From: an uncultured Actinomycetota bacterium
Lineage (GTDB): Bacteria > Actinomycetota > Aquicultoria > CAYFWW01
Direction of reading: 5' to 3'
NCBI GenBank assembly: GCA_964346985.1
Contig: CAYFWW010000026.1
Location: 690-64,689, forward strand
Length of the DNA: 64,000 bases
Below the pieces are notes generated by a model, which was given only the letters and a program-made list of their open reading frames with translations, was not told where the DNA came from and did no database searches. The position numbers and the translations under genes were made by a program. Positions 4,682 to 61,604 of the stretch are shown here, in pieces (positions within the stretch are counted from its first letter, which is position 1; each line of letters opens with the position of its first letter).

Positions 4682-5296
4682 ATGTTACCTATTAATATTA
4701 GGCTGAAAAACAGGAAAGTAATAGTAATTGGCGGAGGAAAAATTGCCGAAAAAAGGGCTATTTCCTTACATGAAGCAGGGGCCAATGTAGTTTTGATTTC
4801 TCCTGAGGTAACTACCTTGCTGAAAAAGCATATTGAAGCAGACAAAATATTATGGGTTCGTAGGAAGTATTGTCGAGGGGATTTAAAAGGCGCATTTATT
4901 GGAGTAATTGCAATAAATAACCCGGAAGTTGAGAGCATCTTTATTGAAGAGGCGGCTGAAGAAGGTGTCTTAATAAATCTTTCTTCCAGCTCAAAAAAAA
5001 GCGATATTATCTTTCCAGCTACCGTTAGGAGAGGAAGATTAGAGATTAGTGTCAGTACATCTGGAGCTTTTCCTATGCTTTCAGCTGAGATAGCCCGAGA
5101 TATTGGTCTATATTACGGTGATGATTTTCAGGGTTTTATTGATTTTTTATCCGAATTAAGAGAGATTGTAATAGATAGATATCCCCAAGAAGAGAGAAAA
5201 AAAATATTAAAAAATATACTACAAAAGAAAGAATATATTCTACAGCAAATCAAAGAGGGCAGAAAACCCGAGCTAGATGAGATTTTAGCGAAATAG
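4682..5296 (+). CDS. sirC: precorrin-2 dehydrogenase / sirohydrochlorin ferrochelatase (siroheme synthase N-domain type)
   Basis: Rossmann motif KVIVIGGGKIAEKR and about 200 aa, as for SirC/Met8/CysG-N. Confidence 0.8.
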   Translation: MLPINIRLKNRKVIVIGGGKIAEKRAISLHEAGANVVLISPEVTTLLKKHIEADKILWVRRKYCRGDLKGAFIGVIAINNPEVESIFIEEAAEEGVLINLSSSSKKSDIIFPATVRRGRLEISVSTSGAFPMLSAEIARDIGLYYGDDFQGFIDFLSELREIVIDRYPQEERKKILKNILQKKEYILQQIKEGRKPELDEILAK

Positions 5297-5406
5297 TATC
5301 ATCAAGTAAGTAATTCCTATTATTCCTATCGGAAATCTTGACTATATTATGATAATAATATATCCTATTAAAACAATCGATTTAGTATATTATTCAGGTG
5401 TTTTTA

Positions 5407-6276
5407 ATGGATGTTAATCGTCTTAAAGAAGGCGGAATAATTAAACAAAGACAAGCAGATTATTTCTTTGCACGAATTAAAGTATTAGCCGGTGATATTA
5501 ATTCAAGCCAGTTGAGAAAAGTTGCTGAACTGGCAGAAAAATACGGGCAAGGCTGGGTTCACTTAAGTGTGCGGCAAGGTATTGAGATACCTTTCATTGA
5601 ATACGAAAATTTTGAATCATTAATCTCAGAGTTAGAAGAATCCGGTCTATCAATGGGAGCTTGCGGCCCAAGAGTCAGGGTTGTGGTATCTTGCCCTGGT
5701 TCTGCCATTTGTACTTATGGACTTGTTGATACTAAAAATATGGTAAAAAAGATAGATGAATCTCTATATGGCCGTGAAGGCCTGCCCCATAAATTCAAAG
5801 TTGGTATTTCAGGATGTCCAAGTTCCTGCGCAAAACCACAGGAGAATGACTTAGGCTACTTAGGAATTGTCAAGCCAGTCTTTGATGAAGTTAAAGGGGA
5901 ATGTATTAATTGCAGAATTTGTGCTGAAACATGCCCGACTGGAGCAATAACTCTTGACAGTGAACAAAAACCAGTTATTGACCATTCCAAATGCAGTCTT
6001 GACGGCAGGTGTGTCTCTATTTGCCCGACAGAAGCGATTCAAGCCGAAAGAAAAGGGTGGCGCATATATGTGGGCGGTAAGTTTGGCCGCAAACCTTGCT
6101 TGGGTCTCCCGCTTATTGATTTTGTTGATGATGCAGAAGCTTTAAAAATAGGTGAAAAGGTTTTACAAGCCTACATAGACCTAGGAGAGAAAGGCGAAAG
6201 GTTAAGAGAGGTTATTGATCGTGTGGGATTTGAGAATTTTAAGAAAGAGGTACTGGCTCTTGAAAAACTTTCTTGA
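5407..6276 (+). CDS. small siroheme-[4Fe-4S] sulfite reductase (AsrC/Dsr-like) with embedded 2x[4Fe-4S] ferredoxin domain
   Basis: Siroheme-cluster Cys motif CPGSAIC ... GCPSSC. Ferredoxin motifs CINCRICAETCP and CSLDGRCVSICP. Track start GTG 5398 is an alternative. Confidence 0.8.
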   Translation: MDVNRLKEGGIIKQRQADYFFARIKVLAGDINSSQLRKVAELAEKYGQGWVHLSVRQGIEIPFIEYENFESLISELEESGLSMGACGPRVRVVVSCPGSAICTYGLVDTKNMVKKIDESLYGREGLPHKFKVGISGCPSSCAKPQENDLGYLGIVKPVFDEVKGECINCRICAETCPTGAITLDSEQKPVIDHSKCSLDGRCVSICPTEAIQAERKGWRIYVGGKFGRKPCLGLPLIDFVDDAEALKIGEKVLQAYIDLGEKGERLREVIDRVGFENFKKEVLALEKLS

Positions 6277-6490
6277 TTTACGGGGAGTTATCTGTCCGAT
6301 GAATTTCGTCAAAGCCAAATTAAAGATAGAAGAAGCAAGAGATGGAGAGCAAGTTGAATTCTGGTTGGACGATGGTGAACCAGTTGCTAATGTTCCAAGG
6401 AGCTTGAAGGAAGAAGGACATAAAATCATTGACTTAAAACGTGTTTCTAATTATTTCTGCTTAATTGTAAAAAAGAAAGGAGAAAATTGA
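6260..6490 (+). CDS. tusA: TusA/SirA-family sulfur carrier protein
   Basis: LDLRGVICPMNFVKAKLKIEE is a TusA-type active-site Cys motif. TTG 6260 with AGAGG 9 nt upstream gives about 76 aa. The track ATG 6215 would overlap the sulfite reductase by 62 nt. Confidence 0.7.
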   Translation: MKNFLDLRGVICPMNFVKAKLKIEEARDGEQVEFWLDDGEPVANVPRSLKEEGHKIIDLKRVSNYFCLIVKKKGEN

Positions 6491-7183
6491 ATGGATGATT
6501 TAAGAGAATTAGAAGCTTTAAGCACAGAGGATATAATCAAATGGGCTTATGAACTTCACGGTGACAAGATAGCTATCGCTTCAAGCTTTGGAGCTGAAGA
6601 TGTTGTCTTAATTGATATTGCTCAACGGATAATTGATAAACCGAGAGTATTCACTCTTGATACCGGGCGTCTTCATCAAGAAACATATAAATTAATCGAT
6701 AAGGTTAGAAAAGACTATCAAATCGATATTGAAGTATTTTTTCCAAATTATAAAGATGTTGAAGAAATGGTCAAGGACAATGGTCTTGATCTTTTTTATA
6801 AAGGAATCGAGTATAGAAAACTGTGCTGTAAAGTGAGAAAGATTGATCCCTTAAAAAGGGCCTTGACTGGTCTGAAGGGATGGATTTGCGGTCTTAGGAA
6901 AGAACAGTCGCAAAGCAGGACAGATTTAAAAAAAATTGAAATAGATGAAGCTAACAATGGAATTATCAAGATTAATCCCCTTATTGACTGGTCAATCGAT
7001 GAAATTTGGAATTATATACAAGAAAATAAAGTACCCTATAATCCTCTTCACGATGAAGGTTATCCCAGTATAGGTTGTGAACCATGCACTCGAGCTATTC
7101 AACCCGGTGAAGATGTCCGGGCCGGCCGCTGGTGGTGGGAGAATCCGGAGCAAAAAGAATGCGGAATACACGTCACGAGGTAA
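6491..7183 (+). CDS. cysH: adenylylsulfate (APS)/PAPS reductase, Fe-S-cluster type, thioredoxin-dependent
   Basis: SFGAEDVVLID, LDTGRLHQETY, Cys pair CC (KLCCKVRK) plus CEPC, and C-terminal ECGIH catalytic motif. Confidence 0.9.
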   Translation: MDDLRELEALSTEDIIKWAYELHGDKIAIASSFGAEDVVLIDIAQRIIDKPRVFTLDTGRLHQETYKLIDKVRKDYQIDIEVFFPNYKDVEEMVKDNGLDLFYKGIEYRKLCCKVRKIDPLKRALTGLKGWICGLRKEQSQSRTDLKKIEIDEANNGIIKINPLIDWSIDEIWNYIQENKVPYNPLHDEGYPSIGCEPCTRAIQPGEDVRAGRWWWENPEQKECGIHVTR

Positions 7184-7294
7184 CCATGCATAGAGAAAAC
7201 AAATCTAATTATTCTTATATGGATTTTAATATTTACGACGGCAAATTATTCAGAATTTTAAGATTAAATTTAGCTCGAGATTTTAAATTGACGG

Positions 7295-8062
7295 GTGAGA
7301 CAGTTGGGTTTTGAATTATCCATAATTGGTTTATTTGTCGGCATATTGATAGGTGTTTCCGGTATTGGCGGAGGAGCCATTATGGCACCGATTCTTATTT
7401 TTTTAGGCATTGGCCCGTCATATGTAGTTGGAGCTGATTTGTTCTATTCATTCTTGACAAAATTTGTTGGTGGATTTTATCACTGGAAAAACAATAAAGT
7501 CGATCTGGGCATAACCAAAGATTTGTTATTAGGCAGTATTCCATTTTCTTTGCTAGGTGTTTTGGTTCATAAGTATTTTCAGATTGCCTTTGGTGAAGTG
7601 ACTATCCGTAATATTATAGGTGTCGTGCTTTTATTTGTATCTGTATTTATTCTTGTCAGGGCATTTTGGAAGGTTTCCCCTTGCGAAACAAGATTCAGTC
7701 GGGTAAGAAGATGCCGGAAGAAGGTTCTCTTTATTATTGGCAGTATTGTTGGTTTTTTAGTTGGTTTGACCTCAGTAGGAAGCGGAACTTTAATACTAAG
7801 CAGTTTATTTTTGATTTTTCCCAAATTATCACTGAGTAAGATAGTAAGTACTGATATCTTTCATGGATTTCTTATGGTAAGCGGAGCTGCTTTTCTCCAT
7901 CTTTTTTTAGGAAATGTTAATTTTTTTATTGTTGGTTATATATTACTAGGCTCAATCCCTGGTGTAATACTAGGAAGCAATTTAGCTTTTAAATTGAACG
8001 AAGGGTTTCTTGCCATTTTGCTAGCGTCGCTGCTAGCTTTATCTGGAGTAAAAATGCTATGA
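7295..8062 (+). CDS. TauE/SafE (TSUP) family sulfite/sulfur-compound permease
   Basis: 255 aa, about 8 TM helices, duplicated G-rich motifs (GVSGIGGGAIM, GLTSVGSGTL). Confidence 0.75.
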   Translation: MRQLGFELSIIGLFVGILIGVSGIGGGAIMAPILIFLGIGPSYVVGADLFYSFLTKFVGGFYHWKNNKVDLGITKDLLLGSIPFSLLGVLVHKYFQIAFGEVTIRNIIGVVLLFVSVFILVRAFWKVSPCETRFSRVRRCRKKVLFIIGSIVGFLVGLTSVGSGTLILSSLFLIFPKLSLSKIVSTDIFHGFLMVSGAAFLHLFLGNVNFFIVGYILLGSIPGVILGSNLAFKLNEGFLAILLASLLALSGVKML

Positions 8063-8490
8063 GATTATTTTTTTCAAAAGATACTTATCAGAAAATTATA
8101 GAACACGCTAAAAAGGAGTTTCCTAAGGAAGCCTGTGGGATTATTGGCGGAGTTGAAAACAAAGGGCTAAATGTCTTTCCATTGACCAATACCGATAAGA
8201 GCCCTATTTCATATTTTGCGTCTCCTGAAGAACAATTTAAAGTATTTAAAAAGATTAGAAAAAAAGGTTTGAGCCTAGTAGCAATATATCATTCGCATCC
8301 TCATTCAATCGCTAAGCCTTCTCAGAAAGATGTCGAGTTGGCTTTTTACCCTGATGCATTTTATATTATTATCTCCCTGGCAAATAGGGCTTTGCCTGAT
8401 TTAAAAGCTTTTAAGATTAATCAAAAGAAAGTAGAGGAAGCGGAGATTATTATAAAGGAGGAAGAAGATGCCTATTCAAATTTATATTAA
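8059..8490 (+). CDS. JAMM/MPN+ metalloprotease (Mec/HcyD-like)
   Basis: EACG ... [14 protein letters not shown] is a complete E / HxH-x7-S-xx-D JAMM motif. ATGA overlap with the upstream gene. Confidence 0.85.
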
Positions 8491-9586
8491 TGGAAAATCC
8501 GAGCTTGTAAATGAAAAATTCAATCTTTTGGATTTTCTTTCCAAGAAGGAAATTAGGCCGGAAGTAGTCAGCGTTGAACTCAATGGCCAATTATTAAAAC
8601 GGGAGAACTTTAAAGATGCAATTATTCAAGATAACGATCAAGTTGAAATTATCTTTCATTTAAGCGGAGGGCAAAGATTTACGGATGTAGCAGAATTAAT
8701 TGGCAATACTCCTTTGATACAAGTAAATTCTGAAGGAGCAAAGATGGCTGAGATCTGGGCCAAACTTGAATCATATAATCCCGGAGGGAGTGTCAAAGAC
8801 AGAATTGCCTTGAGTATGATTGACGATGCTGAAAAGAAAGGACTGCTCAAACCAGGAGGTACTATTGTCGAACCAACTTCAGGAAATACAGGAATTGGCC
8901 TGGCCTTGATTGCTTCTGCTAGAGGGTATCGTTTGATACTTACCATGCCCGAAAGTATGAGCAAAGAGCGAATTGGAATTTTAGAAACTTTTGGAGCTGA
9001 AGTGATCCTGACTCCGGCAGCTGAGGGAATGAATGGAGCAGTGAAAGAAGCGGAGAAAGTAGCAAAACAACATAATGCTTATATTCCCCAACAATTTGAT
9101 AATCCTGCTAATCCAGAAATACACCGTAAGACAACTGCCGAAGAAATATGGAGTGATACTGAGGGGCAAATCGATGCCTTTGTGGCTGGAGTTGGGACAG
9201 GAGGAACTATAACCGGGGTAGGCGAGATTTTAAAGTCGAGGAATGACTCTATATATATTGTGGCAGTAGAGCCAGATAAATCTCCTGTTTTGTCGGGAGG
9301 AAAACCAGGCTCACACCGGATTCAAGGTATTGGAGCAGGTTTTATTCCAAGCGTGCTAAATATGGATTTGGTAGATGAAGTATTAAAGGTAAAAGATGAA
9401 GAAGCTTATAGCACTAAGATGGAGCTGGCTAAAAAAGAGGGTCTATTGGTTGGAATTTCATCAGGTGCAGCCTGTTTTGCGGCAAGGATAATTGCCAAGA
9501 AGTTAGGTTTAGGCAAGAGAGTGGTTACTATTTTTCCTGATACAGGAGAACGCTACCTTAGCCTTGCTCCTTATTTTAGATATTGA
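8468..9586 (+). CDS. ThiS/CysO-like ubiquitin-fold sulfur carrier fused N-terminally to cysteine synthase (CysM/CysK)
   Basis: Residues 1-68 resemble ThiS and end ...[11 protein letters not shown] canonical CysK N-terminus follows immediately ([14 protein letters not shown]), with PLP-Lys motif SVKDR and [10 protein letters not shown]. Confidence 0.85.
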
Positions 9587-9625
9587 AAGTGTGCAAATAG
9601 AAATGAATCTTTTATTTGATAGTAG

Positions 9626-10882
9626 GTGGCAAATGTGAGCTTTATAAAGGGCTTAAAATGCCGGGAGTGCGGACATAGATATGAAAGTGGAGCACTTTAT
9701 GTGTGTGAATATTGCTTTGGTTCTCTTGAAGTTGAGTATGATTATCTGGGCATTACAAAAGTGCTTTCCCGGGATATTATTGAAGGAAGAGAAAAAAATA
9801 TGTGGCGTTATAAAGAGCTCTTGCCTTTGGAGGGTGAAGCTACTGACGGTATCGGTACCGGTTATACACCTTTCTTTAAAGCAGAAAAACTTGGAGAGAA
9901 AATTGGAATCAAAGAGTTATATATAAAAGATGATTCAGTTAATCATCCCACTCTTTCATTTAAAGATAGGGTAGTTGCAGTAGCACTTTCACGTGCTAAA
10001 GAGCTGGGCTTTACCGTTACCGCTTGTGCATCAACAGGAAATCTGGCTAATTCTGTTGCTGCGCAGTCAGCAAAGACCGGGCTTAATGTTTTTATTTTTA
10101 TTCCGGCTGATTTAGAGAGTGGAAAGATTGTCTCTACTCTTGTTTACGGAGCGACTCTTATTGCTGTTAAGGGTAATTATGATGAGGTAAACCGCCTCTG
10201 TAGTGAAATAGCAGCTGAAAAAGATTGGGCTTTCGTGAATATTAATATTAGGCCTTATTATGCTGAAGGATCAAAAACTTTTGGATACGAGATAATCGAA
10301 CAACTTGGCTGGGAGCCACCTGATCATATAGTGGTACCTGTTGCCGGCGGTTCTTTAATAACCAAGATATGGAAATCAATCAATGAGTTTAAAAAAGTTG
10401 GAATTATTAAAAACAACAAGACCAAGATACATGCTGCTCAAGCAGAAGGATGCAGCCCAGTTATTACTGCCCTTAAAGAAAAAAGTGATGTTATAAAACC
10501 AGTTAAACCAAAGACAATTGTAAAGTCTTTAGCAATTGGAAACCCGGCTGATGGATATTATGCGGTTCAAACAGTTAATAAAAGCGGGGGAAGCGGTGAA
10601 AGCGTCACTGACCATGAAGTAATAGAGGGTATTAAACTATTAGCTCAAACTGAGGGTGTATTTTCGGAAACTGCAGGTGGAGTGACTGTAGCTACTGCCA
10701 AGAAACTTTCTCAAAAGGGTTTATTTAATAAAGATGAGATAGTGGTTTTAGCCATAACTGGCAATGGGTTGAAGACTAAGGAAGTGCTATCAGGAAAACT
10801 TGAGGAACCAATATATATTAAACCAAGCTTAAGTTCATTTGAAGAAGCAACAAAGGGGGTGAGCTTAGTTGGCAACAGTTAG
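9626..10882 (+). CDS. threonine synthase-family PLP enzyme with N-terminal zinc ribbon
   Basis: CRECGH...CEYC zinc ribbon, PLP-Lys motif LSFKDR, ASTGNLANS. GTG 9635 is an alternative start. Confidence 0.8.
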   Translation: MANVSFIKGLKCRECGHRYESGALYVCEYCFGSLEVEYDYLGITKVLSRDIIEGREKNMWRYKELLPLEGEATDGIGTGYTPFFKAEKLGEKIGIKELYIKDDSVNHPTLSFKDRVVAVALSRAKELGFTVTACASTGNLANSVAAQSAKTGLNVFIFIPADLESGKIVSTLVYGATLIAVKGNYDEVNRLCSEIAAEKDWAFVNINIRPYYAEGSKTFGYEIIEQLGWEPPDHIVVPVAGGSLITKIWKSINEFKKVGIIKNNKTKIHAAQAEGCSPVITALKEKSDVIKPVKPKTIVKSLAIGNPADGYYAVQTVNKSGGSGESVTDHEVIEGIKLLAQTEGVFSETAGGVTVATAKKLSQKGLFNKDEIVVLAITGNGLKTKEVLSGKLEEPIYIKPSLSSFEEATKGVSLVGNS

Positions 10883-11936
10883 AATTCCAACACCAATACA
10901 AAAGCTTACTAAAGGACAAGCAATAGTCGAGGCTGAAGGCAATAACCTCTCTGACCTTATCGAAGATTTGGACAAGAAGTTTCCTGGCTTCAAAGAAAGA
11001 TTATGCGAAGAAGACGGAGAAGTAAAAAGATTTATTAATATATATATAAACGAAGAAGATATTCGCTTTCTTGACGGACTTTATACTGAGATCAAAGATG
11101 AGGATAAAGTCTCAATTATCCCGGCAATTGCCGGAGGCTCTTTAAGCGAAGATGAAGTTGAAAGGTACAGCCGCCAGATTATTTTATCTGAGATAGGAGG
11201 AAAAGGCCAAGAAAAATTACTTAATTCCTCTGTTCTGGTAGTCGGCTCAGGCGGCTTAGGTTCGCCAGTCCTTCTTTATCTGGCAGCAGCAGGCATTGGC
11301 AGAATAGGAGTAGTCGATAGTGATGTGGTTGAATTAAACAATCTTCAAAGACAGATTATTCATGATACTCAAGATGTTGGAAAAGCTAAAGTGATTTCCG
11401 CTAAAGAGACAATGTCTAAAATTAATCCTGATACTATTATTGATGTTTACGAATTAAGGCTTAATTCAGGTAATGCTTTTGAATTAATTTCAGAATATGA
11501 CCTGGTAATTGATGGCAGTGATAACTTTGCGACCAGATATCTTCTTAATGATGCTTGTGTCATGCTAAAAAAACCTTTGATTGAAGCGGCTATTTTAAAA
11601 TTTGAAGGACAAATTATGTCGGTTATACCTGAAGATGGCCCATGTTACCGTTGCCTTTTTCCCGAACCACCTCCTGCTGGATCAGTGCCAAACTGCCAAC
11701 AAGCTGGAATTCTTGGACCGGTAGCCGGCTTGTTAGGTTCACTCCAAGCTATCGAAGCTTTAAAAGTTATTTTGGGAAAAGGAGATATTTTGAAGGGGAA
11801 ATTGCTGGTTATAGATAGCTTAAGTATGAATTTTCATCTGGTTAAATTAAGGAAGAATCCTGATTGTGAAGTATGCTCAGATCAGCCGCGAATAGAAAAA
11901 CTTATTGATTATGAAGAGTGGTGCGCAAGGAGGTAA
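10869..11936 (+). CDS. MoaD/ThiS-like ubiquitin-fold domain fused N-terminally to ThiF/MoeB-type E1 adenylyltransferase
   Basis: Residues 1-90 are MoaD-like and end IIPAIAGG. A canonical MoeB N-terminus follows directly (ERYSRQIIL, VVGSGGLGSP). Zn motifs CYRC and CEVC. No rhodanese domain. Confidence 0.85.
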   Translation: MATVRIPTPIQKLTKGQAIVEAEGNNLSDLIEDLDKKFPGFKERLCEEDGEVKRFINIYINEEDIRFLDGLYTEIKDEDKVSIIPAIAGGSLSEDEVERYSRQIILSEIGGKGQEKLLNSSVLVVGSGGLGSPVLLYLAAAGIGRIGVVDSDVVELNNLQRQIIHDTQDVGKAKVISAKETMSKINPDTIIDVYELRLNSGNAFELISEYDLVIDGSDNFATRYLLNDACVMLKKPLIEAAILKFEGQIMSVIPEDGPCYRCLFPEPPPAGSVPNCQQAGILGPVAGLLGSLQAIEALKVILGKGDILKGKLLVIDSLSMNFHLVKLRKNPDCEVCSDQPRIEKLIDYEEWCARR

Positions 11937-11942
11937 AGAGAA

Positions 11943-12185
11943 ATGGCTAAAAGAATAGTCAGATTGACTTTTCCAGAGGACCTGGTTAATAAACCTATTA
12001 TCTTTCAGATGGCCAAGAAATTTGATTTGATACCGAATATTAAAAGGGCCAAGGTCAGTGAGACAGCCGGCGAGGTTGTTCTGGAGATTACCGGAGATAA
12101 AGAAAAACTCAAAGATGGCCTAGCCTATATATCCGAACTTGGAGTTATTGTAGAAAATATCCCAGGTGATATTGTAGAGGGATAA
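11943..12185 (+). CDS. NIL-domain protein
   Basis: 80 aa; RLTFPEDLVNKPIIFQMAKKFDLIPNIKRAKV...GEVVLEITGD matches the NIL (MetN C-terminal-like) domain pattern. Confidence 0.6.
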   Translation: MAKRIVRLTFPEDLVNKPIIFQMAKKFDLIPNIKRAKVSETAGEVVLEITGDKEKLKDGLAYISELGVIVENIPGDIVEG

Positions 12186-12190
12186 AAATC

Positions 12191-13621
12191 ATGGGAAAAG
12201 TTTTTCTGGTCGGAGCTGGCCCCGGGGCTCCCGGGCTTATAACAGTTAAAGGTAGGGAAGTTTTAAACCAGGCAGATGTTATCTTGTTTGATAGGTTAGT
12301 TCAACCCTATCTATTAGAGTATGCTCCACAAGCTAAAAAAATATACTGCGGTAAAAAGACAGAGCGACATACCTGGAACCAAAATGAAATAAACCATATT
12401 TTAATAAAAGAAGCGAAAGCAGGAAAGACTGTTGTTAGATTAAAGGGGGGAGACCCTTTCATCTTTGGTCGTGGCGGTGAAGAAGCTTTAGCTCTTTCCA
12501 TGGCTAAAATCCCTTTTGAAATAATTCCGGGGGTCTCATCTTCAATCGGCGGTCCGGCTTTTTGTGGAGTGCCGCTTACCCATAGGGGAATATCATCAAA
12601 CCTGGTAATCGTCACCGGCCGTCAGGATCCAAGTGGGCCGTCTAATATAATCGACTGGAAGAAGATTGCTGCCCTGGATACTATAGTTATCTTGATGGGC
12701 GTTAAAGAGTTGCCCCACATTGTTGAAAATATTAGAAAGATAAGATCTATTAAAACTCCGGTTAAAATTATCTCTTGGGGGACTTATGCAAAACAAAAGA
12801 TAATTAAAGGAACACTAAAGGATATTGTTTTTAAGAGCCAGAAAAGTAACATTAAGCCTCCGTCTGTCATCATAATTGGGGATGTTGTAAATGTACCCGA
12901 GAGATATGAATCATTTCAAAATTTTCAAAGCCAGGGAATAAGAACTCTCTTGATTGATTCACAAAATTCTTCCAGTGAGATTGGTAGAAAACTTTTGGAT
13001 TTGGGCTTTTACATTGAAGAATTTTTTTACAAAAAAGAGATTTCCAAGCGTTTGCTTTTAATAATAGATAATCTAAAGAATTACAGATGGATAGTTTTTT
13101 CAGACAATGAAGCAATTGTAGGATTTACCGATGCCTTAAGATTAAAAGGTATAGATATAAGAGATATTAATAAAATAAATCTGGGTGTTATAGGTGAAAA
13201 AACTAGAAATAGCTTGCTGGAAAAAGGAATGTTTGCCAAGAGAATATTTAATAATAGAACAAAACTCCCTGATCGATCTTTGCTTGTCAACTCTGATTCA
13301 AGCAAAATATCTGAAAATGTTGTAAATAATGTTTGTGCTTTTAATATTGAGCCGGTATGCGCATCTGATTATCAAAAACTTCAAAATGTATATGGCGCTA
13401 CATTTATTCTCTCTCCTTCCGGGATGAAATGGCTATCTAGTGTAAAAAAACTTGAAGATCTTGGTTTGATATATGCTGTATCCGATTGTGAATATAATAA
13501 TTGGAAGATATATCGAGAAAAAATTATTTACTTTGAATCAATTGAAGAAATTGAAAAAATAATAGACTCTACTTTTACCAGAACTGGATTTGAAAACAAT
13601 ATTATAGATAGGGTAATTTAA
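12191..13621 (+). CDS. cobA: uroporphyrinogen-III C-methyltransferase fused to a divergent uroporphyrinogen-III synthase (CobA/HemD)
   Basis: VFLVGAGPGAPGLITVKG, VVRLKGGDPFIFGRGGEE, GVSS. The C-terminal 230 aa has a HemD-like pattern (IVFSDNEAIVGF, LGVIGEKT). Confidence 0.8.
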   Translation: MGKVFLVGAGPGAPGLITVKGREVLNQADVILFDRLVQPYLLEYAPQAKKIYCGKKTERHTWNQNEINHILIKEAKAGKTVVRLKGGDPFIFGRGGEEALALSMAKIPFEIIPGVSSSIGGPAFCGVPLTHRGISSNLVIVTGRQDPSGPSNIIDWKKIAALDTIVILMGVKELPHIVENIRKIRSIKTPVKIISWGTYAKQKIIKGTLKDIVFKSQKSNIKPPSVIIIGDVVNVPERYESFQNFQSQGIRTLLIDSQNSSSEIGRKLLDLGFYIEEFFYKKEISKRLLLIIDNLKNYRWIVFSDNEAIVGFTDALRLKGIDIRDINKINLGVIGEKTRNSLLEKGMFAKRIFNNRTKLPDRSLLVNSDSSKISENVVNNVCAFNIEPVCASDYQKLQNVYGATFILSPSGMKWLSSVKKLEDLGLIYAVSDCEYNNWKIYREKIIYFESIEEIEKIIDSTFTRTGFENNIIDRVI

Positions 13622-60587: not shown

Positions 60588-61604
60588 GTGATTATATTGG
60601 TAATTAAGGCAGTTGGACTTTTATCCGGCGGATTAGACAGCAGATTAGCAGTTAAAGTTATGATTGATCAAGGGATAGAAGTTTTTGCTTTGCATAATGT
60701 AACTATATTTTGTACTTGCACCTCTAAGAATAGCTGTAAATATGAAGCACTAAAAGCTGCAGAGGAATATAATATTGACTTGAAGACTATTAATACGACC
60801 AAGGAATTCCTTCAGATTATTGAAAATCCCAGGTTTGGATATGGCCGTAATATGAACCCTTGCCTTGATTGCCGGGTACATTTATTCATAAAGGCTGAAG
60901 AATACATGAAAGAGTTAGGGGCAAAGTTTATTTTTACCGGTGAAGTCCTTGGCGAAAGACCTATGTCTCAGAGGAAAGAGGCAATGAAGTTAATTGAAAA
61001 AGAGACAGGCCTTTCAGGATTGATTCTCAGGCCATTAAGTGCCCGATTGCTTGAACCGACAATTCCTGAGATTAAAGGATGGGTCGACCGGCAAAGATTG
61101 CTTGATATTTCAGGGCGTTCAAGAAAGCCTCAGATTAAATTAGCTAAGAAATATAATTTAAAGGATTATCCCTGTCCAGCAGGAGGATGTCTTCTAACAG
61201 ATAAGATGTTTGCCGGCAAATTAAAAGATTTAATAGATAAAGAAATTAAACTTAATCTTGAAGAAATAAAATTACTCAAGCTAGGCAGGCATTTTCGCCT
61301 TTCCCAAAATTGTAGATTCATTGTTGGCCGAGATGAAACAGAAAATACACATATTGAGAAACTTGCTACCGGCAATGATTGGCTGGTCGTTGCTTGTGAC
61401 TATAAAGGGCCAATCGGGCTACTTCGTGGTGAAATAAATGATATGAATAAAGAATTGGCTGCAAAAATTACTGCAATCTATGGTCAAGGTAGAGATAATA
61501 CAAATTTAAAAATATACTTGACCAATTCTCAAAATATCAGGGAAATTATAAGCGTACAACTTGATATTGATATAGATTTCCTTGATTCATACAGGATTTC
61601 ATAA
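60588..61604 (+). CDS. PP-loop ATPase superfamily protein (tRNA-thiolation ThiI/MnmA-like)
   Basis: PP-loop LLSGGLDS, NPCLDCRVHLF, TGEVLGERPMSQ. Confidence 0.6.
   Translation: MIILVIKAVGLLSGGLDSRLAVKVMIDQGIEVFALHNVTIFCTCTSKNSCKYEALKAAEEYNIDLKTINTTKEFLQIIENPRFGYGRNMNPCLDCRVHLFIKAEEYMKELGAKFIFTGEVLGERPMSQRKEAMKLIEKETGLSGLILRPLSARLLEPTIPEIKGWVDRQRLLDISGRSRKPQIKLAKKYNLKDYPCPAGGCLLTDKMFAGKLKDLIDKEIKLNLEEIKLLKLGRHFRLSQNCRFIVGRDETENTHIEKLATGNDWLVVACDYKGPIGLLRGEINDMNKELAAKITAIYGQGRDNTNLKIYLTNSQNIREIISVQLDIDIDFLDSYRIS

What the first reader, a model, noticed from the sequence alone, without database searches (positions are those of the whole stretch)
9626..12185. Second Ubl made as a fusion to its own E1, with a ThrC-like enzyme and a NIL protein: candidate thiocarboxylate-dependent homocysteine branch
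ORF 10869-11936 starts with a 90-aa MoaD-like domain ending IIPAIAGG. A canonical MoeB/ThiF N-terminus follows immediately (SLSEDEVERYSRQIIL..VVGSGGLGSP, plus CxxC zinc motifs). This is a substrate-enzyme fusion that again needs post-GG cleavage, and only one JAMM gene is nearby.

It overlaps by 14 nt a threonine-synthase-family PLP enzyme with a zinc ribbon. An 80-aa NIL-domain protein follows it.

ThrC-like enzymes using O-phosphohomoserine with a ThiS/MoaD-type thiocarboxylate are known from the Streptomyces MetM/MetO route. JAMM-processed carriers are known from the Wolinella HcyS/HcyD/HcyF/MetY route. NIL domains accompany methionine and homocysteine genes (MetN C-terminus; methanogen COG1900/NIL pair).

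The cluster therefore seems to encode two parallel carrier-dependent branches (Cys and Hcy) sharing one E1 and one protease, with both carriers delivered as cleavable fusions.
Basis: partly seen in the sequence, partly recalled or inferred. Interest (0 to 1): 0.75.

Follow-up and report, generated by a model that had tools for sequence, protein, structure and literature searches.

The report
Fused sulfur-carrier/E1 homocysteine synthesis module
This gene cluster most likely makes homocysteine, the methionine precursor, by the recently described MetM/MetO route, here with the small sulfur-carrier protein fused to its own activating enzyme and with a probable methionine-sensing NIL protein alongside.

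Summary
ORF 10869-11936 encodes a 90-aa CysO/MetO-type ubiquitin-like sulfur carrier ending in GG, fused in frame to a MoeB/ThiF-type E1. It overlaps by 14 nt a ThrC-family PLP enzyme with a zinc ribbon (9626-10882). An 80-aa NIL protein follows (11943-12185).

The ThrC-like protein belongs to a clade that is monophyletic in 100/100 bootstraps and separate from canonical threonine synthases. That clade includes an actinobacterial gene behind a SAM riboswitch with a MetO-like gene after it. In 130 of 161 genomes with enough downstream sequence, a CysO/MetO-like carrier gene follows directly. NIL follows in 62 of 141.

The carrier is found free, or fused through an invariant GG to the E1, to NIL, or to homoserine kinase.

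This is therefore the MetM/MetO thiocarboxylate route from O-phosphohomoserine to homocysteine (Streptomyces, 2024), set inside a sulfate-assimilation operon. It sits next to a ThiS-CysM cysteine branch, one JAMM protease and one E1.

The pathway itself is known. The carrier-E1 fusion and the recurrent NIL partner seem undescribed. Cleavage, sharing of the E1 and the role of NIL are inferred, not shown. I rate it a new variant of a known kind, of moderate interest.

The parts
4682..5296 (+). Siroheme synthase N-terminal-type enzyme (precorrin-2 dehydrogenase/ferrochelatase). It supplies the cofactor for sulfite reductase.
   Evidence: PF13241 E=1e-23; TIGR01470 109 bits, above its cut-off
5398..6276 (+). 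Small siroheme sulfite reductase with an inserted 2x[4Fe-4S] ferredoxin domain. It is the source of sulfide.
   Evidence: NIR_SIR E=9e-36, NIR_SIR_ferr E=9e-19, Fer4
6215..6490 (+). TusA/SirA sulfur-relay protein. The true start is probably later than the listed TTG.
   Evidence: PF01206 E=1.6e-18. The homologue in L207 is 78 aa.
6491..7183 (+). APS/PAPS reductase (CysH)
   Evidence: TIGR02055 278 bits against a cut-off of 235
7295..8062 (+). TauE/SafE-family sulfite/sulfonate transporter
   Evidence: PF01925 E=5.7e-40
8059..8490 (+). JAMM/MPN+ metalloprotease (Mec/HcyD-like). The motif E...HSHx7SxxD is intact. It is the proposed post-GG processing enzyme and adduct hydrolase.
   Evidence: Prok-JAB E=2e-23; NCBIfam desampylase model 77 bits, below its cut-off. 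PDB 2kks 98 bits and PfJAMM1 42 bits. The motif was read from the translation.
8468..8671 (+). ThiS-type Ubl domain (68 aa, ends SGG) fused to the cysteine synthase
   Evidence: PF02597 on residues 12-68. A ThiS-then-CysM order or fusion recurs in related loci.
8672..9586 (+). CysK/CysM-type cysteine synthase domain
   Evidence: TIGR01139 454 bits, above its cut-off
9626..10882 (+). MetM-clade ThrC-like PLP enzyme with an N-terminal Cys4 zinc ribbon. It is the proposed O-phosphohomoserine plus carrier-thiocarboxylate homocysteine synthase.
   Evidence: clade recovered in 100/100 bootstraps; clade residue at all 25 discriminating positions. It is 50.6% identical to the riboswitch-controlled Nonomuraea gene.
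10853..10862 (+). Shine-Dalgarno sequence (AAGGGGGTGA) for the TTG start of the fusion ORF, lying inside the end of the ThrC-like gene. This suggests translational coupling.
10869..11138 (+). CysO/MetO-type MoaD-family Ubl domain (90 aa, ends IIPAIAGG). It is the proposed homocysteine-branch sulfur carrier, made as a precursor.
   Evidence: PF02597 E=3e-15. Best PDB hits are 4n6e_B and M. tuberculosis CysO 3dwg_C, at 78 bits each. It is 45% identical to the Nonomuraea MetO-like protein. The GG is invariant.
11139..11936 (+). MoeB/ThiF-type E1 adenylyltransferase domain, with no rhodanese domain
   Evidence: PF00899 E=2.5e-87. E. coli MoeB 1jw9 scores 204 bits. The ATP loop and both CxxC pairs are invariant.
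11943..12185 (+). Stand-alone NIL-domain protein (80 aa, no cysteine). It is proposed to bind methionine and act as a regulator or adaptor of the branch.
   Evidence: PF09383 E=3e-17. The profile hits the E. coli MetN C2 domain 3dhx at E=2e-10. NIL lies downstream of 62/141 MetM-like genes, and there are 13 MoaD~NIL fusions.
12191..13621 (+). Uroporphyrinogen-III C-methyltransferase (TP_methylase) with a long C-terminal extension. It acts in siroheme synthesis and is the last gene of the operon.
   Evidence: PF00590 E=3e-50 on residues 3-212. It holds the same position in L207.

Best explanation
Genes 4682-13621 form one sulfate-assimilation operon that ends in two protein-thiocarboxylate branches. 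The segment under review (9626-12185) is the homocysteine branch of the MetM/MetO type.

Proposed sequence of events:
1. The carrier (residues 1-90, CysO/MetO family) is translated as the N-terminal part of its own E1.
2. A post-GG cut releases carrier-GG and the E1. The cut is most likely made by the JAMM protease encoded four genes upstream.
3. The E1 adenylates the carrier's C-terminal glycine.
4. Sulfide replaces AMP to give the thiocarboxylate. The sulfide comes from the operon's sulfite reductase and may pass through TusA, because this E1 has no rhodanese domain.
5. The ThrC-like enzyme eliminates phosphate from O-phosphohomoserine on PLP and adds the thiocarboxylate at C-gamma.
6. After an S-to-N acyl shift, the carrier-homocysteine adduct is hydrolysed by the same JAMM, as Mec does for CysO-cysteine. 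This frees homocysteine.
7. The NIL protein, homologous to the methionine-binding C2 domain of MetN, probably senses methionine (or homocysteine) and tunes the branch.

The neighbouring ThiS-CysM fusion is the equivalent cysteine branch. It probably uses the same JAMM and the same E1.

Shown here: domain identities, the in-frame fusion, clade membership, conserved synteny and fusions, and the SAM-riboswitch link in an actinobacterium.

Inferred: every chemical step, the identity of the protease, sharing of the E1, and the role of NIL.
For: **The ThrC-like protein is not a canonical ThrC**
- phmmer scores are bimodal. Zinc-ribbon homologues linked to a MoaD gene score at least 396 bits and align from residue ~3-12. 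Canonical ThrCs score 150-217 bits and align from residue ~60. These include second paralogues encoded in the same loci and PDB entries 2zsj, 6cgq, 1uim and 2d1f.
- In an NJ tree, the clade holding the window protein is monophyletic in 100/100 bootstraps.
- The window protein carries the clade residue at all 25 positions that separate the two groups. Examples are PT[LH]SFKDRVV against PTGSFKDRGM, and the positions equivalent to T. thermophilus T88, S155 and R160.

**The clade is tied to methionine**
- In Nonomuraea, a 50.6%-identical member sits directly behind a SAM riboswitch (RF00162, 68.7 bits). A 91-aa carrier gene ending in GG follows it.
- This matches the published description of S. 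albulus metM/metO (PMC12172450; GapMind 2026).

**Synteny**
- Of 161 distinct MetM-like genes with enough downstream sequence, 130 have a CysO/MetO-like ORF starting within 600 nt on the same strand. NIL lies within 1.8 kb in 62 of 141.

**Rosetta-stone fusions of the carrier**
- The carrier is fused to the E1 in the window and in L001, L207, L208 and L209. It is fused to NIL in 13 loci. It is fused to homoserine kinase in L173 and L112 (TIGR00191 at 230 and 202 bits). Every fusion keeps ...AGG at the junction.
- Omnitrophota and Elusimicrobia loci have the same order, ThrC-like, MoaD, MoeB, NIL, as separate genes. The fusion is therefore a simple derivative of that arrangement.

**The carrier and its processing**
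- The carrier domain is most similar to M. tuberculosis CysO.
- There is a precedent for a JAMM cutting a natural Ubl fusion: DRJAMM cleaves MoaD-MoaE (PMC8832034).
- The operon type (Ubl, JAB, an E1 without rhodanese, SirA/TusA and sulfate-assimilation genes) was defined by Iyer et al. 2006.
- The AlphaFold2 model shows two confident domains joined by a lower-confidence junction: pLDDT 66-71 for residues 81-110 against over 90 in the E1 core.

**NIL**
- The NIL profile matches the MetN C2 domain at E=2e-10, and the conserved N-I aligns with MetN N295-I296.
- The NIL domain of the methanogen homocysteine enzyme is described as methionine-binding and regulatory (PMC12068725).
Against: - No biochemistry exists for this protein or for any close relative.
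- I could not obtain the S. albulus MetM sequence, so orthology rests on a Nonomuraea proxy.
- The window has no SAM riboswitch or other known regulatory RNA.
- TIGR00260 (thrC) scores above its cut-off.
- A cyanobacterial member of a MetM-like lineage was reported to make threonine from O-phosphohomoserine in vitro (PMC12172450). Clade members may therefore keep ThrC activity.
- The 64-kb window does not show whether the genome has a canonical thrC, a thrB, or another homocysteine route.
- Two loci with the same carrier-E1 fusion (L001, L208) have no JAB gene within 8-10 kb. The processing protease is therefore not always encoded nearby.
- Nitrospira-type loci carry two E1 genes, which weakens the idea that one E1 serves both carriers.
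Confidence: 0.75

Rival explanations
1. The ThrC-like gene is the organism's ordinary (or bifunctional) threonine synthase. It sits next to sulfur-carrier genes without using them.
For: TIGR00260 scores 296 bits against a cut-off of 167. No other thrC is seen in the window. A cyanobacterial relative showed threonine synthase activity in vitro (PMC12172450).
Against: The clade is separate from canonical ThrC in 100/100 bootstraps. It differs at 25 otherwise conserved positions. Twelve Nitrospirota loci encode a canonical ThrC beside the MetM-like gene. An Aquifex MAG has a clade member (L051), while A. aeolicus also has the canonical ThrC of PDB 2zsj. Adjacency to a carrier gene is 81%. The actinobacterial member is under SAM-riboswitch control.
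Confidence: 0.07
2. The N-terminal Ubl of the E1 is never cleaved. It acts as a docking or regulatory domain, as Iyer et al. proposed for Ubl-ThiF fusions. The ThiS-type carrier released from the CysM fusion, or a carrier encoded elsewhere, then serves both PLP enzymes.
For: Iyer 2006 noted that Ubl-ThiF fusions co-occur with free ThiS and suggested a different role for the fused domain. L003 and L034 have both a fused and a free MoaD. L001 and L208 have no JAB nearby.
Against: The GG is invariant in 36 fusions while the linker after it varies. The fused domain sits exactly where the free MetO-like gene sits in other lineages, and no other MoaD-type gene lies near the ThrC-like gene in the window, L001, L207, L208 or L209. 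The same carrier is fused through GG to NIL or ThrB elsewhere. L003 has two PLP enzymes for its two carriers.
Confidence: 0.1
3. The Ubl, E1 and JAMM form a protein-conjugation (SAMPylation-like) system that modifies the neighbouring enzymes, rather than a sulfur-transfer pathway.
For: NCBIfam SAMP1, SAMP-E1 and desampylase models give the domains sub-threshold to strong scores. Archaeal SAMPs do both jobs (PMC4443979 appears in the list).
Against: No E2/E3-like genes are present. The module is embedded among sulfate-reduction genes and paired with PLP beta- and gamma-replacement enzymes. The carrier is closest to CysO, a bona fide sulfur carrier.
Confidence: 0.05
4. The ThrC-like enzyme makes a different sulfur compound. 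Examples are cysteate from phosphoserine and sulfite, as in the ThrC-derived cysteate synthase, or cysteine from phosphoserine.
For: The operon produces sulfite and has a TauE transporter. Cysteate synthase evolved from ThrC (reference list seen).
Against: TIGR03844 cysteate synthase scores 75 bits against a cut-off of 325. SAM-riboswitch control in Nonomuraea points to methionine. The carrier-homoserine kinase fusions point to O-phosphohomoserine. A separate CysM already covers cysteine.
Confidence: 0.04

Closest known systems
MetM/MetO thiocarboxylate route to homocysteine in Streptomyces albulus (Hasebe et al. 2024; steps MetO, Mec, MoeZ, MetM as listed in GapMind 2026)
   Same: A ThrC-homologous PLP enzyme is followed by a CysO-like carrier ending in GG. 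A JAMM (Mec) and an E1 are required. O-phosphohomoserine is implied as the substrate. The window protein is in the same clade as an actinobacterial pair controlled by a SAM riboswitch.
   Different: Here the carrier is fused to the E1. The E1 lacks the rhodanese domain of MoeZ, and TusA is present instead. There is no SAM riboswitch. A NIL protein is part of the module. All of it is embedded in one sulfate-assimilation operon together with a cysteine branch.
Mycobacterium tuberculosis CysO-CysM-Mec (with MoeZ) cysteine pathway
   Same: The carrier family is the same (CysO 3dwg_C scores 78 bits). The logic is the same: phospho-amino-acid plus carrier thiocarboxylate, then JAMM hydrolysis of the adduct.
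   Different: The acceptor enzyme here is ThrC-like rather than CysM-like, and the product is homocysteine. In the window, the CysM partner carries a ThiS-type Ubl instead.
Wolinella succinogenes HcyS/HcyD/HcyF/MetY route, and Iyer et al. 2006 'type 4e' operons
   Same: Both combine a Ubl, a JAB protease, an E1 without rhodanese, SirA/TusA and sulfate-assimilation genes. The carrier needs C-terminal trimming by the JAMM (reference 34).
   Different: Those systems use an O-acetylhomoserine sulfhydrylase (MetY). Here a ThrC-like enzyme takes its place, and no MetY is in the cluster.
Natural Ubl fusions cleaved after GG: Deinococcus MoaD-MoaE cut by DRJAMM; Ubl-ThiF fusions noted in Campylobacter and Pelobacter
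   Same: An N-terminal sulfur-carrier domain is fused to a partner enzyme, and a JAMM releases it (PMC8832034). An N-terminal Ubl on a ThiF-type E1 has been seen before.
   Different: The partner here is the E1 itself, in a homocysteine context. The Campylobacter-type fused Ubl was thought not to be the carrier.
NIL domains: MetN C2 trans-inhibition domain and the NIL-ferredoxin subunit of methanogen L-aspartate-semialdehyde sulfurtransferase
   Same: The domain family is the same (E=2e-10 to the MetN C2 domain) and the conserved N-I motif is kept. Both are associated with methionine or homocysteine supply.
   Different: Here NIL is a stand-alone 80-aa protein, or is fused behind the carrier's GG, in a thiocarboxylate pathway. 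It has no ferredoxin or ABC ATPase partner domain.

Membership tests
MetM (ThrC-homologous, carrier-thiocarboxylate-dependent homocysteine synthase) | ThrC-fold PLP enzyme with the Schiff-base lysine | tested here: met
   PALP E=1e-70. The SFKDR lysine K113 is invariant in all 35 aligned sequences.
MetM (ThrC-homologous, carrier-thiocarboxylate-dependent homocysteine synthase) | Groups with methionine-regulated metM-like genes rather than with canonical ThrC | tested here: met
   The clade with the SAM-riboswitch-controlled Nonomuraea gene is recovered in 100/100 bootstraps. All 25 of 25 discriminating residues are of the clade type.
MetM (ThrC-homologous, carrier-thiocarboxylate-dependent homocysteine synthase) | A MetO-type carrier is encoded immediately downstream | tested here: met
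   The carrier domain starts 14 nt before the ThrC-like stop codon. The same adjacency is seen in 130/161 relatives.
MetM (ThrC-homologous, carrier-thiocarboxylate-dependent homocysteine synthase) | Direct similarity to the characterised S. albulus MetM | not tested
   The sequence and the paper (PMC11497804) were not available. Nonomuraea served as a proxy (50.6% identity).
MetM (ThrC-homologous, carrier-thiocarboxylate-dependent homocysteine synthase) | Converts O-phosphohomoserine plus MetO-COSH to homocysteine | not testable with these tools
   This needs enzymology. Indirect support comes from the carrier-homoserine kinase fusions.
Canonical threonine synthase (ThrC) | Conserved ThrC active-site signature (PTGSFKDRGM, STGNTS, and the residues equivalent to T. 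thermophilus S155 and R160) | tested here: not met
   The window has PTLSFKDRVV and STGNLA, with N and Y at the S155 and R160 positions. The TIGR00260 score is nevertheless above its cut-off.
CysO/MetO-type sulfur-carrier protein (ThiS/MoaD superfamily) | Beta-grasp domain ending in Gly-Gly | tested here: met
   PF02597 on residues 4-90. The GG is invariant. CysO scores 78 bits. The modelled beta-grasp domain has pLDDT 82-94.
CysO/MetO-type sulfur-carrier protein (ThiS/MoaD superfamily) | Free C-terminal glycine carboxylate available for adenylation | tested here: not met
   As encoded, the GG is internal (S91 follows it). Proteolytic release is required and has not been shown.
MoeB/ThiF/MoeZ E1-like adenylyltransferase | ThiF domain with a Gly-rich ATP loop and a Cys4 zinc site | tested here: met
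   PF00899 E=2.5e-87. GxGxxG and two CxxC pairs are invariant. MoeB 1jw9 scores 204 bits.
MoeB/ThiF/MoeZ E1-like adenylyltransferase | C-terminal rhodanese domain (MoeZ subtype) | tested here: not met
   The protein ends at residue 355 with no PF00581 match. About half of the more distant fusion homologues do have one.
JAMM/MPN+ protease of the Mec/HcyD type | E...HxHx7SxxD metal site, encoded with the Ubl and E1 | tested here: met
   Prok-JAB E=2e-23. The motif EACG...[14 protein letters not shown] was read in the translation.
NIL domain (PF09383) | Domain match and the conserved N-I motif that aligns with MetN N295-I296 | tested here: met
   E=3e-17. The profile hits the MetN C2 domain at E=2e-10. 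Ligand binding itself is not testable here.
Wolinella HcyS/HcyD/HcyF/MetY system | O-acetylhomoserine sulfhydrylase (MetY) as the acceptor enzyme | tested here: not met
   No Cys/Met-metabolism PLP enzyme is in the operon or among the scanned window ORFs.

The most novel reading that the evidence does not exclude
Outside the actinobacteria and cyanobacteria, NIL is a third working component of the MetM/MetO route. The carrier is deliberately made as a pro-protein capped behind its GG by the E1, by NIL or by homoserine kinase. JAMM cleavage, gated by methionine bound to NIL, would then be the regulated step that commits sulfur to homocysteine. That would be a ubiquitin-precursor-like control layer in a bacterial biosynthetic pathway. 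It would also give the first defined role for the NIL proteins that accompany two unrelated homocysteine pathways.
Probability: 0.2. Interest if true: 0.7.

Novelty: new variant of a known kind. Interest (0 to 1): 0.5.

Why it matters
The MetM/MetO pathway was described only in 2024, in Streptomyces. The loci fetched here show its gene signature in 178 distinct genes from many phyla, including Omnitrophota, Elusimicrobiota, Planctomycetota, Nitrospirota, Acidobacteriota, Verrucomicrobiota, Gemmatimonadota, Aquificota and cyanobacteria. Most of these genes are annotated as "threonine synthase".

This matters in three ways:
- **Metabolic reconstruction.** MAGs would otherwise be misread as methionine auxotrophs. 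Aquifex, for example, was flagged in 2018 as having no known homocysteine route.
- **Operon design.** The window shows a compact layout in which sulfate reduction feeds two carrier-protein branches, and both carriers are made as cleavable fusions.
- **A lead on NIL.** The recurrent NIL partner and the carrier-NIL fusions give a concrete, testable handle on what NIL domains do in homocysteine synthesis.

Tried and rejected
- **Hasebe et al. 2024.** I tried to read PMC11497804 to get MetM/MetO details. It is not held.
- **Fusion protein against GTDB genomes.** The single-sequence search gave only 3 loci. It still revealed free MoaD genes behind ThrC-like genes in Acidobacteriota.
- **High-GC DNA pattern for LSFKDRVV.** This was meant to reach Streptomyces metM. 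It returned 120 loci but no Streptomyces or other convincing actinobacterial gene, and the one locus labelled Bifidobacteriaceae (L119) groups with a Verrucomicrobiota sequence. The Nonomuraea gene has THSFKDRVV rather than TLSFKDRVV. The loci were still useful for the synteny statistics. The actinobacterial example came from a tblastn against PLSDB, where a Nonomuraea chromosome is filed as a plasmid.
- **Riboswitch search.** I found no SAM riboswitch or other regulatory RNA in the window, at gathering or E<=1 thresholds. The only hit is a chance lncRNA match.
- **Which E1 matches the window E1.** In Nitrospira-type loci both E1 genes score the same against it (about 315-330 bits), so this was uninformative.
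- **Source contig and taxonomy.** The exact look-up of the window's fusion protein found no record. The cluster-member look-up gave no organism names. The organism remains unidentified. It is a bacterium of about 35% GC with Lgt, PFOR and a NiFe hydrogenase.
- **Rejected readings.** Moco biosynthesis was rejected because there is no MoaE or other Moco gene, the carrier is CysO-like and the context is sulfate assimilation. Cysteate synthase was rejected because TIGR03844 scores far below its cut-off.
- **Active-site recollection.** I recall that T. thermophilus T88, S155 and R160 line the phosphate site of ThrC. I could not check this in the library, so it is offered only as a recollection.

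Full report
**1. Observation**

The ORFs are as described.

ORF 10869-11936 (355 aa) has two domains. A ThiS/MoaD-family domain covers residues 4-90 (PF02597, E=3.3e-15). A ThiF domain covers residues 100-335 (PF00899, E=2.5e-87). NCBIfam MoeB, SAMP-E1 and MoeZ models score 320-370 bits on residues 91-354.

The junction reads IIPAIAGG|SLSEDEVERYSRQ in one frame. The TTG start is the first codon after an in-frame TAG, and a strong Shine-Dalgarno sequence precedes it. There is no plausible internal start after the GG, so both the carrier and the E1 can only be made as the fusion.

The ORF overlaps by 14 nt a 418-aa ThrC-family PLP enzyme (9626-10882) with an N-terminal Cys4 zinc ribbon. An 80-aa NIL protein follows 7 nt later (11943-12185; PF09383, E=3e-17). 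Within the 64-kb window there is one JAMM gene, one E1, two Ubl domains and one ThrC homologue.

The fusion is not an artefact. More than 100 full-length ThiS+ThiF proteins of 48-73% identity come from independent assemblies.

**2. Setting**

All genes from 4682 to 13621 are on the + strand, with short gaps or overlaps. In order they are:
- a siroheme synthase N-terminal-type enzyme;
- a small sulfite reductase with a ferredoxin insert;
- TusA;
- APS reductase;
- TauE;
- the JAMM protease;
- the ThiS-CysK/M fusion;
- the ThrC-like enzyme;
- the MoaD-MoeB fusion;
- NIL;
- a uroporphyrinogen methyltransferase.

A relative whose fusion protein is 65% identical (L207) has the same order, plus an ATP sulfurylase. 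This matches the "type 4e" neighbourhood of Iyer et al. 2006: Ubl, JAB, an E1 without rhodanese, SirA and sulfate-assimilation genes. The difference is that a ThrC-like enzyme stands where those operons have O-acetylhomoserine sulfhydrylase.

**3. The ThrC-like protein is a MetM-clade enzyme**

I scanned GTDB genomes with an alignment of its homologues and with a DNA pattern. This gave about 200 loci.

*Two populations.* phmmer scores of the window protein against these loci fall into two groups.
- Zinc-ribbon proteins score at least 396 bits and align from residue ~3-12.
- A second set scores 173-217 bits and aligns only from residue ~60, the same pattern as the solved canonical ThrCs (2zsj, 6cgq, 1uim and 2d1f, at 150-196 bits).
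- The second set consists of paralogues encoded in the same Nitrospirota loci, in the order MetM-like, MoaD, NIL, ThrC.

*Tree and signature.* An NJ tree (35 sequences, 404 columns) recovers the first group as a clade in 100/100 bootstraps. Twenty-five positions are conserved one way in the clade and another way in canonical ThrCs, and the window protein has the clade residue at all 25. Among them are the residues flanking the PLP lysine (SFKDRVV against SFKDRGM) and the positions equivalent to T. thermophilus T88, S155 and R160. I recall, but could not verify, that these last three belong to the phosphate site that steers ThrC towards threonine.

*Link to methionine.* A tblastn against PLSDB found a 50.6%-identical member in Nonomuraea gerenzanensis. 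A SAM riboswitch (RF00162, 68.7 bits) lies directly upstream of it. A 91-aa carrier ending IIPAVAGG lies directly downstream. That is the arrangement reported for S. albulus metM/metO (PMC12172450). GapMind 2026 lists the pathway as MetO, Mec, MoeZ and MetM, and notes that MetM is often misannotated as threonine synthase.

**4. The carrier**

The fused Ubl is of the CysO/MetO type.
- Its best solved relatives are 4n6e_B and M. tuberculosis CysO (78 bits each).
- It is 45% identical to the Nonomuraea MetO-like protein.

Among 178 distinct MetM-like genes, 161 have at least 700 nt of downstream sequence. In 130 of these (81%), such a carrier ORF starts within 600 nt on the same strand.

The carrier's C-terminus varies:
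- 95 carriers end exactly at GG;
- about 45 have tails of 1-16 residues;
- 13 are fused to NIL;
- 2 are fused to homoserine kinase (TIGR00191 above its cut-off);
- the window and its relatives (L001, L207, L208, L209) are fused to the E1.

Every fusion keeps ...AGG, followed by a linker that varies in length.

In Omnitrophota and Elusimicrobia the order ThrC-like, MoaD, MoeB, NIL occurs as separate genes. The window's fusion therefore looks like the loss of one stop codon.

The homoserine kinase fusion ties the carrier to the supply of O-phosphohomoserine. ThiS-type Ubls, in contrast, always sit next to or fused with CysM. This supports the pairing ThiS with CysM and MoaD with MetM.

**5. E1 and protease**

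The E1 domain has the ATP loop and both zinc CxxC pairs, all invariant. It matches E. coli MoeB at 204 bits. It has no rhodanese domain, and TusA is in the operon, as in Iyer's type 4e.

The JAMM has an intact E...HxHx7SxxD site.

A free glycine carboxylate is chemically required for adenylation, so the carrier must be cut out. JAMM-mediated release of a natural MoaD-MoaE fusion is documented in Deinococcus (PMC8832034). Mec-type JAMMs also hydrolyse the carrier-amino-acid adduct. The AlphaFold2 model has two confident domains and a weaker junction, which is compatible with an accessible cleavage site.

Against a strict dependence on a neighbouring protease, L001 and L208 have the same fusion but no JAB gene within 8-10 kb.

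**6. NIL**

NIL lies within 1.8 kb downstream of 62 of 141 MetM-like genes, and in 13 loci it is fused behind the carrier's GG.
- The family has no conserved cysteine, so it is unlikely to be a persulfide carrier.
- Its profile matches the methionine-binding C2 domain of E. coli MetN (E=2e-10). The conserved N-I aligns with MetN N295-I296.
- The NIL domain of the methanogen homocysteine enzyme is described as methionine-binding and regulatory (PMC12068725).

A methionine-sensing regulator or adaptor is the best guess, at perhaps 40% confidence.

**7. Mechanism**

The proposed flow is as follows:
- Sulfate-derived sulfite is reduced to sulfide.
- The JAMM frees the two carriers from their fusions.
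- The E1 adenylates them, and sulfide (or TusA persulfide) makes the thiocarboxylates.
- CysM and the MetM-like enzyme add them to their phospho- or acetyl-activated substrates.
- The JAMM releases cysteine and homocysteine.
- NIL modulates the homocysteine branch.

Shown here are the domain identities, the fusion, clade membership, the synteny and fusion statistics, and the riboswitch link. All the chemistry, the identity of the protease, the sharing of one E1 and the role of NIL are inferred. Nitrospira-type loci have two E1 genes, and these are equally similar to the window's E1.

**8. Rivals and caveats**

- **Housekeeping or bifunctional ThrC.** This is unlikely, for the reasons in section 3. 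It is not excluded for this genome, because only 64 kb is visible. A cyanobacterial MetM-like protein made threonine in vitro.
- **An uncleaved docking Ubl.** The invariant GG and the absence of any other MoaD-type gene argue against this.
- **A conjugation system, or a cysteate-synthase-like activity.** These have little support.

**9. Novelty**

The pathway is known, and Ubl-ThiF fusions and JAMM-processed carriers have precedents. In the searchable literature I found no description of three things:
- the MetO-E1 fusion;
- the family of GG-linked carrier fusions (to E1, NIL or ThrB);
- NIL as a recurrent member of the module.

I file it as a new variant of a known kind, of moderate interest.

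Noticed in passing
L009:8267-8815, L010:6331-6903, L014:8212-8769, L036:8282-8803, L041:8276-8788 and 8 more loci: The MetO-like carrier is fused in frame to NIL. The junction is always ...PAIAGG, then a 3-21 aa linker, then the NIL domain. This is a Rosetta-stone link between the carrier and NIL.
   Followed up: yes
L173:5256-6737 (+); L112:3-1109 (-): The MetO-like carrier is fused through GG to a full homoserine kinase (TIGR00191 at 230 and 202 bits, cut-off 168), directly downstream of a MetM-like gene. The loci are from Acidobacteriota and Chloroflexota MAGs.
   Followed up: yes
L021, L022, L025-L027, L029, L032, L033, L035, L038, L039, L042 (Nitrospirota/Thermodesulfovibrionia): The gene order is MetM-like, MoaD, NIL, canonical ThrC. 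Both consumers of O-phosphohomoserine are encoded side by side.
   Followed up: partly
L051 (Aquifex MAG); L065, L068, L074 (Aquificaceae): Aquificales carry a MetM-clade gene of 60-63% identity to the window protein. Price et al. 2018 listed Aquifex aeolicus as lacking every known homocysteine route. This clade may fill that gap.
   Followed up: partly
window 7183-7295, compared with L207:3068-4252: The window operon has no ATP sulfurylase. The closest syntenic relative has one between cysH and tauE. None was found among the window ORFs I scanned.
   Followed up: partly
window 60588-61604 (+); L209:11349-12350: A ThiI-like PP-loop protein with an NFACT-R_2 RNA-binding domain is encoded here. 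In L209, a gene with the same architecture directly follows the NIL gene of the module. In the window it lies 48 kb away.
   Followed up: no
window 6215-6490 (+): The listed TusA ORF overlaps the sulfite reductase gene by 62 nt. The homologue in L207 is 78 aa, so the real start is probably about 40 nt further downstream.
   Followed up: no
window 12191-13621 (+): The uroporphyrinogen methyltransferase has a C-terminal extension of about 260 aa with no Pfam match at E<=1e-5. It could be a divergent HemD-like domain.
   Followed up: no
proteins P0053-P0115 (Acidobacteriota, Chloroflexota): Many more distant homologues are triple fusions of MoaD, MoeB and rhodanese (about 480 aa). In these the carrier, the E1 and the sulfurtransferase are in one polypeptide.
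   Followed up: no
L003/L004:7012-10370; L034: These loci lack a ThrC-like gene in this block. They read CysM-like, MoaD~MoeB fusion, free MoaD, CysM-like. That gives two carriers and two cysteine-synthase-like enzymes around one fused E1.
   Followed up: no
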